Shown here piece after piece: positions 9 through 62,755 of a stretch of DNA of 64,000 bases (its first letter is position 1; each line of letters opens with the position of its first letter). This stretch comes from Eledone cirrhosa. Taxonomy: Eukaryota. Under the pieces are notes generated by a model, which worked only from the letters and a program-made list of their open reading frames with translations, was not told the origin of the DNA and searched no databases. Both the position numbers and the translations under genes were made by a program. The DNA lies in contig OZ024743.1 in NCBI GenBank assembly GCA_964016885.1, positions 313,224,001 to 313,288,000 of the forward strand, written 5' to 3'.

Positions 9-1090
9 GTGAAAGTAGCTCTCGCAGAACCTCCGACGCTTGTGGAGGTTGCAGTGGCTATTTCGAAGCTGAACAGTGGAAGATCTCCAGGTATGGATGG
101 CATACATGCTGAGCTCCTACAATATGGTGGTGAGAGACTCCTGCAACATCTGCACTCTTTGTTTGGAAGGATATGGGCTAATGAATCCGTACCTGAGGAC
201 TGGAGAGATGCAGTAATGGTGGTCTTGTACAAGGGAAAGGGTAACAGGAATGATTGTGGGAACTACAGAGGTATATCATTGCTTTCTGTCGTAGGGAAAG
301 TTTTATGTAGGGTGCTTCTGGACCGTCTGCTGACACACATTGCAGATTGTGTTCTTCCTGAAAGTCAATCTGGTTTTCGTGCTGGACGTGGCACTACTGA
401 TATGATCTTCTCAGCTAGACAGCTCCAGGAGAAGTGCATTGAACAAGGCTTGGATCTGTATCAGTTTTTTGTCGATCTGACAAAGGCTTTCGATACTGTC
501 AACAGAGAGGCATTATGGAAGGTTCTCCAGAAACTTGGTTGCCCTGATAAGTTCCTTGCTTTAGTTAGGTCTTTCCATGACGACATGAAGGCTTGGATTA
601 ATGTCGGAGGTAACACGTCGGAGCCTATCTCAGTAAAAAATGGAGTGAAACAGGGGGATATTCCAGCACCGACCCTGTTTGCCATATACTTTGCAATGGT
701 TTTCTGTATTGCATTCAGGAATTGCAAGCATGGTGTTTACATCCGATATCGAACCTCAGGCAGCATATTTAACGTCAGGCGCTTTGCTGCGAAGACAAAA
801 GTATTTACATCAATCATAAGAGACCTCTTGTATGCAGATGATTGCGATCTTGTAGCGCACACAGAGAGTGATATGCAGCACATTTTGAATACATTTTCTG
901 ACGCTTGCACTGCCCTGGGTTTGACTGTCAGTCTCAAGAAAACTGTCGTCATGTACCAACCTGCCCCTAGTAAGCAGTACACTGAACCAAACATCTATGT
1001 GTATGGCAAACGACTTGGAGTGGTTGATCAGTTTGTCTACCTGCTAAGCACTGTCAATCGATACGGCAACCTTGACAGTGAAATCTCATC
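9..1090 (+). mobile_element. RTE-clade LINE reverse transcriptase fragment (cut by window start, 3' end replaced by another element)
   Basis: ORF 9..1286 has SPGMDGI, NYRGISLLS, QSGFR, FVDLTKAFDTV, GVKQGD and LYADD motifs; homology ends near 1090 at (TATG)n. Confidence 0.9.
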
Positions 1091-55551: not shown

Positions 55552-58518
55552 ATCAGAAAATCCCCTTAGTGATACAACTTCAAATAAAATTCTTTGAGTT
55601 GATGGTTTTGTTGTTTAAGATTATATAGCAATCAGTTTGAGTGGCCCAAAGGAAGAAGAAAAACACACAGACAAACGCATTAACTTGATATTTTGTTTTA
55701 TCGTCCAACTGAATTCTTGCAGTCGATTGAATGGACACCAAAGAATTCCCTCACCAATGCCCAGTTACAATACGAAATCATTATTAACCCGTTCCTGGCA
55801 TTATTTCTCCCGAAATACATTCTATTTTAATGAATTAATCAATGAAGAAATTTGAGAAATTTAACAAAATGAATAGTTATTTCATTACCAATATAATATT
55901 TGTAACATAATAAAATTATGTTGGAAGATCTAATTTTAATCGGAACCCTTTAAATGTTTGTGACCATATTTCTGTAAAACGAACTTAACCAGATATAGGA
56001 CACCCTAAAGAATTGAGATTGATCGTCGATCAACATACTCTTTTTTTAGACCTACATGTTTGTTTTAAAATTACATACTCTTGTTGGATACATGTTCTAT
56101 TATACTAAGCATTTTATTCTAAGGTGTTTTATATAAAATTTCAAGTACGAACTTTTGTTAAGTTATGTTCCAAACAACAACTTAATACTATGGTTAGTTA
56201 CATTACTAAATGAATTCAAATGTTCGATTATTTTAAAAATTATCTAAAAAGATGTCACCTGACACATCAAAATATAGCACATCATTTGCATATATTTAAT
56301 ATGTTCCAGAAGCTTTACGTCATGTAACAGAAGATCATAAAACCCGACGAAAATCTTAAGATATCGGAATGATCGGTTTTGATAGTGTTAACCCTTTTCA
56401 TGCCAATCCGTCCAAAATGGGCTCTAGTCCTATGAAACAAAATCATCCAATTTAAAGAATTCCTATTTAGATTAAAATCTTTCAATATAATTTAATACAA
56501 GAACCATATGAAAAGTTACTATCTTTGTAATAAAATCATAATTTTAGTCAATCCCCCAAATTCTTCATTAATTAATTGACCTATAGTGTATTTCATTAGA
56601 AATAAAGTAAGTGGTAATTACCAATTTGTAATAACAATTAAATATTTGTGAGCGTAAGGTCCGCAGGGCTACATCAGTAGGCTTAAAAACACTGATAAAT
56701 AACAAGGAACGAAAACTGGGTACAATTAGGAATCACTTTTTTTATTATTTACTCTGCATATGTGGGAAGAGTAATAAACATTAGTTTATTACTAATCAAC
56801 ATTGGTTCCGATAAAGTAATGTACTGTGGTGTATGTATTTGTTTTGGTGGAAGTATTAATGACTGCAAGGCCAAACTGTAAATATCTTTGTTAGAGCTCG
56901 ATTCGGCTATTTCCCAAGAACACGCAAATCTAGTCTAGAAGAGAAATCATAGTGAAAAGACTAGTTGATGGAAAAAAACAACCAAACATAAGAATCTGAC
57001 CGAACAGACTGACATGGTGGGTGCTATGACAGATGCCTCTACCTGGTTACCTGTCTAGATAGAGATAGAAGAAATATAATCTTTCTTAAGCCCACTTGCT
57101 ACGACCGTTTAATTGTTTTGGTACAGTTTTGTCAGGAAGTGGTGGTAGAGGTTAGTGTCCATGATCCTTTTCAGGGCCTCAAACAGCGGTGAGAGAGATG
57201 GAGGAAGAAAAGTACCTCCAAATCGATAACCTGACGCGAATGCTTACAACGGACTGAAGACCGCTAAAATCCCTTAAGGTGCCAGGTGGCGAACTTAAAT
57301 CGGGCGCCTGAATATGTCTAGAAATAGCAGTCAAATCACCCTCAAAGCCCACTTATCACCTGCTAGAAATATAGTAATCATCTACTAGGAATAGTTCTTT
57401 CTCCACACAGTTTTCTATCTTAAAATCATAAAGCTCTATGTATGTTGTAACTATCTGGTCAGTCCAACTTCAAATGATACTAGAAACGACACAATATCGG
57501 AATACACATAATTACACGAGGACACGCACACACACATGCACACTCACACATCCAATCATAAAGAAACACACATGCATTGATGAATATACTTTTGAACCAT
57601 TATTTTAAACTCTTTGTTGCAACACTTTCTGAATGGAACATTGCCTAAAGTGTATCTAAGCTTTCTTTAATCTTAAATGACGTAGACATATTTAATCTGC
57701 TTTTATCCTTTTATCAATATGAAAATAACTTAAATACAAAAATATAAGATAAAACACCAAAAAAATACAATAGAAGCTACCCAATCTGACAACACTTCGG
57801 TCGGGAAATCGGCATCACGAGTGATTCTGGGCGTTCCTACTGATTTAGATTATGCAATAAAAACAAATTGATTTGATGTATACCTTCAGGACCAAAGATT
57901 TTTTTATATGGAATTACAATTTTTTTCCCTTTGAATTCTAAAACTTTTGCACATTCATATTTGAAATTCCATAGCATAGAAAATGTCAATGAAAAGATTA
58001 TTTTCTAAATATGTATGAAATAGCAACATATGCAAATAACTTATCGAAAGATTGTATCGTCTACCTTCCTGTCAGTTGATTGAACGTTTGAAAGTATATA
58101 CTTTCCTTATACATATTAACGGCTGAGCAGCTGATGACAGCTAATAAGCTAGACACTAGTTCATCGTTCCTTTGTCAGTGTTGAACAAAATGGCAACGAT
58201 GGTTGCTGAACACTGTGCGGCTAATAATTCGGGTTGTTTGTTTACAAACAAACAGAGCATTAAAATAAATGTTCGGTAAACCCATACGTACATATATATA
58301 TATGTGTGTGCATGTATGTATGTATATACATACTACTGTACGTCTATATACATATATGTATGTACGTGTACATACTTATATTTAAGTATCAGCCGTACTA
58401 AGAGTGAGAAATGAAATTTCATTTTTTCCATTTATATATAAAATATATATAAATGAAAGTATAGAAATTATTGTGAGCGTGAAGCCAACAGTATTTCATA
58501 ATATATTTCATTTTTTCC

Positions 58519-58582
<64 letters not shown>

Positions 58583-58650
58583 CGTAAAATAAGAAAATCT
58601 TTTTTAAAAAAATTTTTTAAAATTTTTTTTACTTACTTACTTAAATTTTC

Positions 58651-58732
58651 ACTCCAACTAATTAGTTTCTGCAATGGGATAAAGACAGTTACGTAATCTA
58701 ACTGTCGAGAATTCATTGCGTCATCAGGGAGT
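58651..58732 (-). ncRNA. Type I hammerhead ribozyme with extended stem II, GUU site
   Basis: ACTCC-CTGATGA-cGCAATG..GACAGTTA..TAACTGTC..CATTGCa-GAAA-CTAATTAG-TT-GGAGT. Confidence 0.8.
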
Positions 58733-59234
58733 CTATTCTCAGCTAAGTCTCCAGGCAATGCGCGGACACTGGCGGCTCATATAAAAATAATAATAATTCG
58801 GTAGATGGAACAGCTGGCGAGGACTGAATTTCATGCACTGAAATCCTCACTGCTTCTAGTCAAATGGCCGATTCTAAAGAATCAATCACGTGACACAGAG
58901 GCTAGTCAGAAGGAATGGGATGGTAAGATGACTGACGCCTACTAACCCCCCCCCCAAAAAAAATTTTTTTTAGAAGTGGTTTTGGCAGGTTTGCTCGACA
59001 AATCAGTGATTTGGAGATAAATATAGATAATTTAATATATCAACTAACATAAGCGCACAGATGCACGCCTATGCCAGCAAATACACAGGTTATGTCATAG
59101 TACCTAGGTGGTTCAATGCAGGAGGATGCAGAACAATAATATAAAAGACGTAAAATAAGAAAATCTTTTTTAAAAAATAAAAAAAAAAATTTTTTTACTT
59201 ACTTACTTAAATTTTCACTCCATATATTAAATTA

Positions 59235-59270
<36 letters not shown>

Positions 59271-59473
59271 TATGTATACGTACATACATATATGTATACA
59301 GACGTACAGTAGTATGTATATATATATACATACATGCACACATAAATATATGTACGTATGGATTCACCGAACATTTATTATAATGCTCGGTGTGTTTGTA
59401 AACAAACAACCCGAATTAAGCCGTACAGTGTCTAGCAACCATCGTTGCTCATTTGTTCAACACTGACAAAGGA

Positions 59474-59516
59474 ACACTGTACTAGTTTCAAGCTTATTAG
59501 CTATCGTCAGCAACGT
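59474..59516 (-). ncRNA. Minimal type I hammerhead ribozyme (family C), GUA site
   Basis: ACGTTG-CTGACGA-tAGCT aata AGCTt-GAAA-CTAG-TA-CAGTGT. Confidence 0.8.
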
Positions 59517-59678
59517 ATACCTTCCTGCCAGATGGTTGAACGTCTGAAAGTATATACTTTCCTTATGCATATTAACGGCTGAGCAGCCTAATTTGCATAT
59601 CGAGTGAGTTAATCGGCCGGGTGCACCGAAAACGATAAACGGAAAAAATGAAACGAAATTTCATTATATGTGTGCATG

Positions 59679-59716
<38 letters not shown>

Positions 59717-60056
59717 CTACTGTACGTCTGTATACATATATGTATGTACGTATACATACTTATATTTAAGTAACAGTCGTACTAAGAGTGAGAAATGAAA
59801 CTTCGTTTCATTTTTTCCGTTTATATATATATATATAAATGGAAAAAATGAAATATTTGTGTATATATATATGTATATATGTGTGTATATGTATATGTAT
59901 GTATATTTGTATATATATATATATGTATATATATAAGTATATATAAATATGTATGTATGTATGTATATGTATGTATATATATATATATATGTATGTGTGC
60001 ATATGTGTATGTGTGAGTATGTATGTATGTGTATGTATATATATATATATATATAT

Positions 60057-60535
60057 ATATGAAAAAGTGAGTCCTTCATCAGTGACCCTCCAACCGTCCT
60101 CGGCATTTCATCGCTTTAAGGGCCATATGCCTCAGGTTGGTGCGAACAACGGCTAAAAAAAGTCGTTGGGACACGTAAACAAAGGGGATGCTAGAGTAAC
60201 AACAAAAAAGTTTAAGCAACGGAAAGTGAGCAGAAATAGACAAGTCCCAGATCTCTATGAATATAAACTCTGTGAAATCGTGAACAAGAGACAAAAGACC
60301 ATCTCTTGTTCACGATTTCACAGAGTTTATATTCATAGAGATCTGGGACTTGTCTATTTCTACTCACTTTCCGTTGCTTAAACTTTTTTGTTGTTACTCT
60401 AGCGTCCCCTTTGTTTACGTGTCCCAACGACTTTTTTTAGCCGTTGTTCGCACCAACCTGAGGCATATGGCCCTTAAAGCGATGAAATGCCGAGGACGGT
60501 TGGAGGGTCCTGATGAAGGACTCACTTTTTCATAT
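60057..60535. repeat. Inverted repeat with ~235 bp arms and a 10 bp spacer
   Basis: 60057-60291 versus 60302-60535, few mismatches; diverged relative at ~17890-18180. Confidence 0.95.
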
Positions 60536-60764: not shown

Positions 60765-62755
60765 TTTTTTTATACATATTTCAAGGGCAACCAAAGCAAA
60801 TTATGGTGCGCTTTCATCAGATAAAATACAGATGTGTTCTATAAATAAATATTGACATACCCGGAAAAAAAGACAACGTTAACGGTTGGAGCTTCCTGGA
60901 TAGTGGAGATAGTACATTTATTGAGGGTGATACAAAATTATGGGTGAGTATGCAAATGAGTGTCCGAAAGGTTGAAAAGATAACGGTTTATTTAAATTAA
61001 ACTGTTGGAAGAAGATGATATGTAAGGGAGAGAGAAAAAAAGAAAAAAAGAAAAAAGAAAAAAGAAAGGAGAAAGATAGAAGAGGAAAGAAAGAACGATT
61101 ATATATATTGATAGTGAAGATAGAGTGCATGAAGAAATATGTTTCAAAGGATAAATATACACAGCATAAGTATATCTAAGTGAAAGAAGAAATAAGATTA
61201 ACGTGGAAGAATAATATTTATAATGCAGGGTTCATTACGTTTTGATTATAATACTTATAATGATAGGTTGAACAATTAGATTAAAATTAAAAATTAGAAA
61301 TCAAAATTAAAGATTAAAATTTGCCTTAATATTAAAGATTTAATTTAATAATTTAATATTAATAATTAGTTTAAATGTGTATGTTAAGGATTATAAATTA
61401 TTTAAATAAATATATAGTATTTTACATTAGAGAAAGTCTAGTATAGTTTATTTTATTAAAAGTTGTAAGTCAAAATTTAAACATCCAAATAATTCTAAAT
61501 TTATGAAAAATTTACGCGAGTTTACAAAGGAATAACCACTTAATTATATTATAAAAACAGTAAGGAAATGTAAAGGAAGTTAGAAGTGACTTTTTAAGAT
61601 CTCAGATGACTCCAAGAATTAAATGTTATAAAGTTAAAAAGTTAAAAAAAATTTTTATCTTAAGAATTCTTAAGATAAAATTTCTTTTTTACTTTTTAAC
61701 TTTATAACATTTAATCCTTGGAGTCATCTGAGATCTTAAAAAATCACTTCTAACTTCCTTTACACTTCCTTACTGTTTTTATAATATAATTAAGTGGTTA
61801 TTCCTTTGTAAACTCTCGTAAATTTTTCATAAATTTAGAATTATTTGGATGTTTAAATTAAAACATAAACCATGTTATTTTATATGAAGTCATAAATTTA
61901 CTTGCTATAAAGTTAAACAATTTAAAAAAAATTTATCTTAAGAATATATTTAAAGCATAAACCATAGGTTATTCCACATATATATAAAAAAACCTATATA
62001 TAAAAATCATATGTTTTTCCACATATATATATAAACATTTGGATATATATATTAAAAACGTTTGAAGATATACAAATATAATAATATTGGAAGGTATGAA
62101 AATAATGGTTTTTCTATATCTTTCAAAGGAATTTTCAAATGATTTTTCCTAAAACCTTCCGTAAGTTTTTCAAGAAAAATTTTTCTTAAAGGAGTTTCAA
62201 GCAGTCATATAAAAAAATTCAAGCAGTCATAAAAAAATTTCAACCAGTCATATAAAAATTTTTTATAAAATATTTTATATTTTATAATCTATCGATAGGT
62301 GTAATAATATAAAGTATATAGTATATATATATATATGAGGTAGAGATAATAGAAAGTAAATTAAATATATATGAATCATATATAGATATAGAAAACATTA
62401 TGTAATGGAGATAAATTATATATTACATTTTATATATATATTTAAAAGTTGAGTTTAAACGATGTTTACAGGAACTAAATAAATTATTTCGCAAATTAAT
62501 AGAGTTCTTACTTTTTAGTATAAAGAATATTTCTTCAACGCAAAGTGAGACATTTTTGGATAAAGCAGTGTATGAAGGAGCTTTGGAAATAATTTTCCAA
62601 AGTAAAAAATAGTTAATATTCTTGGATTTTAAGTCCCATAATAAGTTAGATAGAGAAGTTGAAGATTTTTTTACCAATATTCGTAAAGGAACATTTATGG
62701 TTATTAAAACGAGATTTGAAGTCTGTGGAAGTAGAGCCGACATAGTGAAAGGAGT
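60765..62755 (-). mobile_element. Inverted Penelope-like 3' part: GIY-YIG remnant, AT-rich trailer and hammerhead core
   Basis: SSTSLSNLLWDLK..SLCVEEIFFILK..NLFSSCKHR homologous to 44261-44611; CTGATGA-stem-GAAA at 60779-60820. Confidence 0.8.
61474..61859. repeat. Spacerless palindrome with 193 bp arms centred on GAATTC
   Basis: Centre at 61666/61667; a few arm mismatches. Confidence 0.93.

What the first reader, a model, noticed from the sequence alone, without database searches (positions are those of the whole stretch)
58574..59222. 566 nt unit whose 5' end coincides with the predicted ribozyme cleavage site
Seen: ~80 bp at 58574-58656 recurs at ~59139-59222. On the minus strand the upstream copy begins (T)GGAGTGAAAA, the sequence immediately after the GUU site of the hammerhead at 58651-58732, with no ribozyme sequence before it. 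The offset is 566 bp. Inference: the inserted cDNA came from a self-cleaved RNA running from one cleavage site through the next, a genomic footprint of in vivo ribozyme activity.
Basis: partly seen in the sequence, partly recalled or inferred. Interest (0 to 1): 0.75.

Follow-up and report, generated by a model that had tools for sequence, protein, structure and literature searches.

The report
Ribozyme-cut pile-up in retrozyme insertions
This is one copy of an abundant 566-base protein-free repeat with a hammerhead-ribozyme motif and the two-armed insertion shape of Penelope-type jumping genes; across the genome about 2 in 100 passes stop at the predicted cut, roughly three times the chance rate, which likely records occasional self-cutting in the animal, but this particular copy is only about even odds.

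Summary
Observation confirmed: minus-strand 59221-58656 is a 566-nt unit starting at the base after the predicted GUU cut, followed by unit 1-83. The family has 1461 exact matches to unit 1-24. 3' ends are fixed at unit ~83 or ~200; 107 of 108 classifiable two-armed insertions carry one of each, the Penelope one-sided-tail signature. Genome-wide, 26 of 1461 passes stop at the cut (9.5 expected, p 7e-6; 19 versus 4 just upstream, p 0.001). A sister family agrees but weakly (25 versus 11.4; 17 versus 11, p 0.16). So breakpoints are not random, but about 98% of passes read through: cleaved RNA is a minor template. Stalling at the ribozyme duplex or microhomology could also explain the excess. No RNA data; no autonomous partner found. 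Verdict: new non-LTR retrozyme family likely mobilised by a Penelope-like enzyme; interpretation partly supported. The scan noted such pile-ups before in other hammerhead families of this genome (and their absence in two).

The parts
58656..59221 (-). One full 566-nt unit of the repeat, from G1.1 (59221) to U17 (58656); longest stop-free stretch 52 codons
58573..58655 (-). Terminal partial pass, unit 1-83; ends at the family's short (no-tail) 3' end; last 4-5 nt shared with (TA)n
58651..58732 (-). Type I hammerhead motif: stem I ACUCC/GGAGU, core CUGAUGA (58727-58721), C.A mismatch next to the core, stem II 58719-58714/58676-58671 with an extended hairpin, GAAA 58669-58666, palindromic stem III, GUU 58658-58656; predicted cut between 58656 and 58655; intact (read through) in this copy
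   Evidence: sequence, folding, covariation
58656..58667 (.). 12-nt palindrome covering stem III; predicted to drive dimer (double-hammerhead) pairing
59221..59222 (.). Head-to-head junction of the two arms: long arm starts at the predicted cut, 1-nt (T) ambiguity with the short arm
   Evidence: locus L176 = window
59222..59245 (+). Inverted short arm, unit 182-~201, ending at the family's long (tailed) 3' end
58522..58577 (.). (TA)n target flank, left
59237..59268 (.). (TA)n target flank, right

Best explanation
The element is a protein-free hammerhead repeat (non-LTR retrozyme) that was likely pasted into (TA)n by a Penelope-like reverse transcriptase-endonuclease, which would prime both cut DNA strands on one RNA at two fixed sites about 120 nt apart and join the two cDNAs head to head, and the small pile-up of 5' ends at the predicted cut likely marks the minority of templates that had self-cleaved. 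Shown: the unit, two fixed 3' ends, (TA)n targets, the one-of-each rule, close identity of partner arms, the excess of stops at and just after G1.1, and read-through in about 98% of passes. Inferred: the enzyme, a shared RNA for both arms, cleavage itself, and that most templates were uncleaved multimers or re-ligated circles because the ribozyme is slow (U17, a C.A mismatch at the base of stem II, a misfolded monomer, a dimer requirement). In the window copy the long arm would have started at unit 83, passed one intact ribozyme and run off at the next cut, while the short arm started at ~200 and stopped after ~20 nt at the foot of the 135-187 hairpin.
For: 1461, 314 and 1762 exact matches for three sister families. 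3' ends at ~83 or ~200 followed by (TA)n/(TC)n. Of 126 two-armed insertions, 107 have one short and one long end, 1 has two long, 0 two short, 18 have a non-standard end. Partner arms differ by 1.9% on average against 6.0% to other copies (108 comparisons); passes within an arm by 1.4% against 5.3% (219 comparisons). Family A stops at offsets -4,-3,-2,-1,+1,+2,+3: 3,1,7,11,8,5,7 against 2.8,2.2,4.5,2.8,2.1,3.3,4.2 expected. In a sample of 219 arms the 14 nt from the cut hold 20 breaks against 5.3, first of 566 windows, 0 of 2000 simulations as high, while the 14 nt upstream hold 8 against 7.7. Stem II covaries across 10 sequences: 94.6% of cells paired, 9 double-sided changes at 2 pairs, 0 of 500 shuffles as high. 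The predicted dimer (-55.8) beats two monomers (2 x -23.1) and frees the CUGAUGA core. Literature: inverted copy, one-sided tail and (TA)n targets (PMC8557442, passages); two RT start sites downstream of the ribozyme on both DNA strands (PMC11167929, parts 1-2 of 4 read).
Against: Family C replicates weakly: 25 against 11.4 at the site, but also 11 against 6.1 just upstream; internal contrast 17 versus 11, p 0.16, and 15 versus 11 (p 0.26) counted by insertion. Other 3-nt hotspots of similar height exist (6-8, 450-452, 133-135); the cut-site triplet ranks 4 of 566, scan p 0.15. Some site junctions carry microhomology that blurs the break (5 of 26 by my reading; 6 nt in L107). The active monomer fold has probability 0.005, and in the dimer U17 pairs with A14. 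Rfam does not call the motif. No autonomous partner was found. In vitro, a Penelope-like protein used uncleaved RNA and no reads ended at its cut (PMC11167929).
Confidence: 0.6

Rival explanations
1. Same element and enzyme, but the pile-up comes from the reverse transcriptase stalling at the ribozyme helix (stem I, or the 17-bp dimer duplex ending at unit 5) plus microhomology joining; no cleaved RNA is used and the window junction is a stall.
For: The highest 3-nt window is 6-8, at the 3' foot of stem I (6 against 1.0), and the second-best 14-nt window (170-183, 11 against 5.0) overlaps the 3' foot of the strongest hairpin. Family C also shows excess inside the palindrome. The ribozyme looks slow.
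Against: In family A the peak is at -1/+1 (19 against 4.9) and falls to baseline within 2 nt upstream. G-rich starts are normally cold (ratio 0.61 for 6-mers under 50% A+T). Some junctions begin at G1.1 with no microhomology (L101, L111). The foot of stem II shows no excess (531-564: 17 against 18.3).
Confidence: 0.25
2. The match in this copy is chance: 5' truncation falls all along the unit and one copy in a few hundred lands here, whatever causes the small family-wide excess.
For: Breaks cover the whole unit (211 breaks, mean 0.0022 per nt). About 9.5 of the 26 site junctions are expected by chance. The T at the junction is explained by the partner arm.
Against: The T-preceded class to which this copy belongs is the most enriched (11 against 2.8 in family A, 13 against 3.4 in family C).
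Confidence: 0.3
3. The RNA 5' end at this position is a transcription start, not a ribozyme cut.
For: Not tested here.
Against: It needs a start site that coincides to the base with the predicted cut in two families whose stem I differs.
Confidence: 0.07
4. Cleaved unit-length RNA is the normal template, with the enzyme jumping from each cleaved 5' end to a 3' end to build the tandem arrays.
For: Passes within one arm are nearly identical. One lineage of three copies joins G1.1 to a point upstream of the ribozyme (L368-L370).
Against: About 98% of 1461 passes cross the site without a break. Changes at the junction are few (3 of 1461 at U17) and similar in number to neighbouring positions (8-11), so no scar of jumping is seen.
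Confidence: 0.08

Closest known systems
Metazoan non-LTR retrozymes (coral, mussel, axolotl: PMC7229834, passages seen; bioRxiv 10.64898/2026.07.22.740005, parts 1-3 of 5 read)
   Same: Non-coding, low-GC tandem and dispersed repeats with one type I hammerhead per unit; palindromic helix III suited to dimer cleavage; proposed dependence on Penelope-like elements.
   Different: Unit of 566 nt is above the 150-450 bp of PMC7229834 but inside the 51-972 bp range of the preprint. RNA, circles and cleavage are not shown here. The passages I saw do not describe two fixed 3' ends, twin arms or breakpoint maps.
Insertions of endonuclease-bearing Penelope-like elements (PMC8557442, passages; PMC11167929, parts 1-2 of 4)
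   Same: 5' truncation, partial tandems, inverted 5'-truncated copy, a tail often at one end only, (TA)n targets, two RT start sites downstream of the hammerhead.
   Different: No ORF. Tail about 120 nt against 30-40 nt. The one-sided rule is nearly absolute here (107 of 108), whereas in vitro no strand difference in start site was seen. A small excess of ends at the cut, whereas PMC11167929 found no reads there.
R2 retrotransposons with a 5' HDV-like ribozyme (PMC3774820, abstract only)
   Same: Precedent that a ribozyme cut defines genomic 5' junctions, with variable microhomology joining.
   Different: Different ribozyme and enzyme; in R2 the cut is the normal full-length end, here it accounts for about 1% of passes.
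Minimal and palindromic hammerheads of Penelope pLTRs (PMC4209133, passages)
   Same: Type I, palindromic helix III, predicted dimer action and low activity.
   Different: Longer palindrome (12 nt), GUU triplet, C.A mismatch at the base of helix II, long helix II extension.

Membership tests
Type I hammerhead ribozyme | Core CUGANGA, GAAA and NUH in three-helix order | tested here: met
   Window 58732-58651; core columns invariant or nearly so in 10 sequences. GUU is listed as a cleavable NUH site in PMC3138052 (passage); that it is slower than GUC is recalled.
Type I hammerhead ribozyme | Helices supported by covariation | tested here: met
   Stem II: 2 pairs with double-sided changes, 0 of 500 shuffles as high; related sequences can inflate this. 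Stem III never varies, so it is uninformative.
Type I hammerhead ribozyme | Canonical purine-pyrimidine pair 10.1-11.1 (recalled) | tested here: not met
   C.A opposition in all 10 aligned sequences.
Type I hammerhead ribozyme | Match to an Rfam hammerhead model | tested here: not met
Type I hammerhead ribozyme | Self-cleavage | not testable with these tools
   Only indirect: excess of 5' ends at the site.
Non-LTR retrozyme | Non-coding unit of a few hundred nt with a type I hammerhead in each tandem unit | tested here: met
   96 natural units of about 480-580 nt between cut sites; longest stop-free stretch 52 codons in the window unit.
Non-LTR retrozyme | High-copy, dispersed and tandem | tested here: met
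   1461 + 314 + 1762 exact 23-24-mer matches; arrays of 2 to more than 8 units.
Non-LTR retrozyme | Expressed as linear and circular monomer RNA | not testable with these tools
   No RNA holder was available to test.
Non-autonomous Penelope-like element | Two fixed 3' ends with a tail at one end, and an inverted 5'-truncated copy | tested here: met
   107 of 108 classifiable two-armed insertions (126 examined).
Non-autonomous Penelope-like element | AT-rich microsatellite targets | tested here: met
   (TA)n or (TC)n after nearly all standard 3' ends.
Non-autonomous Penelope-like element | Sequence shared with the pLTR of an autonomous element | tested here: inconclusive
   No shared continuation among 109 non-partner flanks of 361. 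A young 785-codon RT/endonuclease-like family shares only 21 of 25 nt, E 0.08.
Autonomous Penelope-like element | RT plus GIY-YIG ORF | tested here: not met

The most novel reading that the evidence does not exclude
Genomic copies work as a fossil 5'-RACE: a slow, dimer-dependent GUU hammerhead with a non-canonical C.A base at helix II cleaves in the germ line, about 1% (up to about 7% if the trimmed ends at unit 2-12 are counted) of reverse-transcription passes run off the cleaved end, and every two-armed insertion is made by one enzyme dimer that primes one DNA strand at each of two start sites 120 nt apart on the same RNA.
Probability: 0.4. Interest if true: 0.62.

Novelty: new member of a known kind. 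Interest (0 to 1): 0.4.

Why it matters
[quoted passage not shown] A breakpoint census gives a number (a minor route, about 1% of passes) and a direct test with a dead-core mutant. The near-absolute one-short-one-long rule and the shared template of partner arms constrain how these enzymes resolve both DNA strands, and tie a retrozyme to Penelope machinery by insertion footprint rather than by co-occurrence. The element class itself is known, and this scan has met the same pattern in other families.

Tried and rejected
Rfam: no hammerhead call. RNA: no RNA holder listed; contigs of 4 runs laid, 0 records from the one guessed RNA run; no verdict on expression. Early impression that second passes stop at the cut far more often than first passes: genome-wide 13 first-pass, 11 second-pass and 2 later or complex among the 26 (my count), so dropped. 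Idea that the long-end arm collides with the short-end start (stops at unit 70-100): 5 against 2.1, p 0.06, and 5 against 3.4, p 0.26, in a wider set; arm lengths uncorrelated; not supported. Repeated starts at G1.1 within one insertion (L171/L172, L376/L427) look like duplicated junctions and were not counted as independent in family A; L427 is among the 8 at offset -2 in family C. Internal deletions (L114, L175, L308, L359, L368-370, L420, L436) were not counted as breaks; L431-433 were counted once; L124/L125 once. Autonomous partner: flank comparisons, Pfam on 4 neighbouring ORF pieces (0 families), a protein search and the family-C loci found none. First pair count used wrong columns, redone. 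First multi-reference tracing was swamped by (TA)n matches, redone. Circle versus uncleaved multimer versus strand transfer between repeats cannot be told apart. The (TA)n-joined listing (first 100 of 221 rows, 29 junctions) showed the same step but is partial and was not used in the statistics. Literature searches for a published breakpoint pile-up at Penelope or retrozyme hammerheads listed none that reports it by title or abstract start; most subscription papers are not held, PMC5850863 was not held, and no supplements were read.

Full report
Observation. The repeat is real: 58573-58656 and 59139-59222 align over 84 columns at 90.5%. On the minus strand GGAGTGAAAA begins at 59221 and 58655, 566 apart. 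I number the unit from G1.1 (59221 = 1) to U17 (58656 = 566). The insertion reads: (TA)n, an inverted short arm (plus strand 59222-59245, unit 182 to about 201), the junction, unit 1-566, unit 1-83, (TA)n. The T before 59221 fits both U17 and the short arm, so the junction is ambiguous by one base.

The ribozyme. The motif at 58732-58651 has stem I ACUCC/GGAGU, the CUGAUGA and GAAA boxes, a six-pair stem II with an extended hairpin, a palindromic stem III and GUU. Rfam does not call it. In 10 sequences from sister families the core is invariant or nearly so and stem II covaries: 94.6% of cells paired, 9 double-sided changes at 2 pairs, 0 of 500 shuffles as high, slid controls 26-51% paired. 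Features that predict slow cleavage: a C.A opposition at the base of stem II in all 10; U17; a monomer whose best fold pairs the core with stem III (-23.1 against -20.6 kcal/mol, active fold probability 0.005); and a dimer through the 12-nt palindrome (-55.8) that frees the core but pairs U17 with A14. Palindromic helix III and dimer action are described for animal type I hammerheads (PMC4209133 and PMC7229834, passages). Cleavage was not tested.

The family. The window lies in a 3.0-Gb genome. The best-scoring relatives are 97-99% identical (40 of 1696 candidates scored). Exact 23-24-mers at the cut site occur 1461 times (family A), 314 times (B) and 1762 times (C), with 0 matches for the reversed controls. 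Natural units run about 480-580 nt (96 units). The window unit has no stop-free stretch over 52 codons.

Insertion anatomy. Arms end 3' at unit about 83 or about 200 (BLAST extends to 205 into the repeat) and run into (TA)n or (TC)n; 5' ends scatter. Of 126 two-armed head-to-head insertions, 107 pair a short end with a long end, 1 has two long ends, none has two short ends, and 18 have one or two non-standard ends. Partner arms differ by 1.9% against 6.0% to other copies, and passes within an arm by 1.4% against 5.3% (108 and 219 non-independent comparisons), so both arms likely came from one RNA or one source. An inverted truncated copy, a tail often at one end only and microsatellite targets are described for Penelope-like elements (PMC8557442, passages), and the tail corresponds to two RT start sites used on both DNA strands in vitro (PMC11167929, parts 1-2 of 4). 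The tail here is about 120 nt, not 30-40.

(a) Sample: 199 of the 200 matches listed were covered by fetched loci, giving 219 arms and 211 breaks over 96,417 bases at risk, 0.0022 per base (one arm pair, L032, corrected by hand). Positions 565-1 hold 8 breaks against 1.7; 2-12 hold 12 against 3.6; the 14 bases from 565 hold 20 against 5.3 and rank first of 566 windows (0 of 2000 simulations as high); the 14 bases upstream hold 8 against 7.7. As a 3-base window the site ranks 4 of 566 (scan p 0.15), beside 6-8, 450-452 and 133-135. (b) Whole genome, family A: I searched for the anchor preceded by a non-matching base at each offset and sorted every hit into point change or break (23, 29, 76). 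The three offsets compatible with the cut give 26 of 1461 against 9.5 (p 7e-6), 21 against 8.8 outside the sample (p 3e-4); -1/+1 against -3/-4 is 19 to 4 (p 0.001). The 26 arms come from 25 insertions. (c) Replication in family C (86, 90): 7, 4, 8, 13, 4, 6 at -4 to +2 against 3.4, 2.7, 5.5, 3.4, 2.6, 4.0; 25 of 1762 against 11.4 (p 3e-4, using family A/B's mean rate), but 17 to 11 in the internal contrast (p 0.16; 15 to 11 by insertion, p 0.26). Both families together: 36 to 15, p 0.002. So the excess is solid in A, weaker in C, and amounts to about 1% of passes.

Mechanism. Most likely a Penelope-like RT-endonuclease nicks both strands of (TA)n, primes one at unit ~83 and the other at ~200 on the same RNA, and the two cDNAs are joined head to head or to the target through short homologies (inferred). 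About 98% of passes cross the cut site, so the usual template is an uncleaved multimer or a re-ligated circle; these data cannot separate the two, nor strand transfer between repeats. A minority of templates would have a cleaved 5' end, giving stops at G1.1 and, after trimming, at 2-12. The main rival is stalling at the ribozyme helices with microhomology joining; the peak at 6-8 and the second-ranked window near the 135-187 hairpin favour it, while the sharp fall two bases upstream in family A, the G-rich context and blunt junctions such as L101 and L111 favour a physical RNA end. For the window copy, 64-75% of its junction class is excess; allowing about one chance in three that the excess is not cleavage leaves about even odds.

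What was not found. No RNA run was available for a test. No autonomous partner: no shared continuation among 109 usable flanks, and a very young 785-codon RT/endonuclease-like family shares only 21 of 25 bases with the unit; its assignment as Penelope-like is from recalled motifs.

Comparison and novelty. It works like, and meets the testable features of, a non-LTR retrozyme, with the insertion footprint of a non-autonomous Penelope-like element; expression, circles and cleavage are untested, and one recalled canonical pair of the hammerhead is absent. A 2026 preprint already proposes that animal retrozymes derive from Penelope-like elements (10.64898/2026.07.22.740005, parts 1-3 of 5). R2 gives the precedent that a ribozyme cut shapes genomic 5' junctions (PMC3774820, abstract). 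My searches listed no paper reporting a breakpoint pile-up at a Penelope or retrozyme hammerhead, within a library that lacks most subscription journals; supplements were not read. Earlier unchecked notes of this scan report the same pile-up in other families of this genome and its absence in two; none matched this family by sequence. Verdict: new member of a known kind; observation confirmed, interpretation partly supported; interest 0.4.

Noticed in passing
window 58058-58424 (+), 59261-59511 (-), 59514-59808 (+): The insertion sits among arms of an unrelated short hammerhead repeat (core at minus 59510 with a 4-nt palindromic stem III and GUA; a decayed copy near 58140; another copy at plus 20856): repeated nesting in the same (TA)n area.
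   Followed up: partly
window 45973 (-), 46062 (+), 46603 (-), 22334 (-): Further hammerhead-like motifs of other families; 45973 and 46062 form a head-to-head pair.
   Followed up: no
window 60084-60509 and 61455-61878: Two long palindromes (208-nt arms, 99% complementary; 212-nt arms, 92%), possibly twin-arm insertions of other elements.
   Followed up: no
L291 1171-3525 (+) and many other places: A very young, high-copy family with an intact 785-codon frame bearing RT-like and C-terminal endonuclease-like motifs (recalled); 44,149 candidates, top 109 at 97-100% identity. No Pfam hit for a 376-aa piece.
   Followed up: partly
L368, L369, L370 around 1500: Three family-C copies lack the whole ribozyme: sequence upstream of stem I is joined directly to G1.1, as a jump from a cleaved end would give.
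   Followed up: partly
L110/L196, L111, L376/L377, L391/L392: Symmetric insertions in which both arms start at or within 2 nt of the predicted cut; symmetric junctions also occur elsewhere (unit 228, 531, 8), so not unique to the site.
   Followed up: partly
L165-L167, L184-L187, L191, L206-L208, L277: Long tandem arrays of the unit that fill whole 3-4.5 kb loci, i.e. local satellite-like expansion.
   Followed up: no
L103, L104; L352-L364: Point variants that turn GUU into GUC or GUA exist but are rare (2 of 1461 in family A; 10 of 1762 in family C), some shared by several units of one insertion.
   Followed up: no
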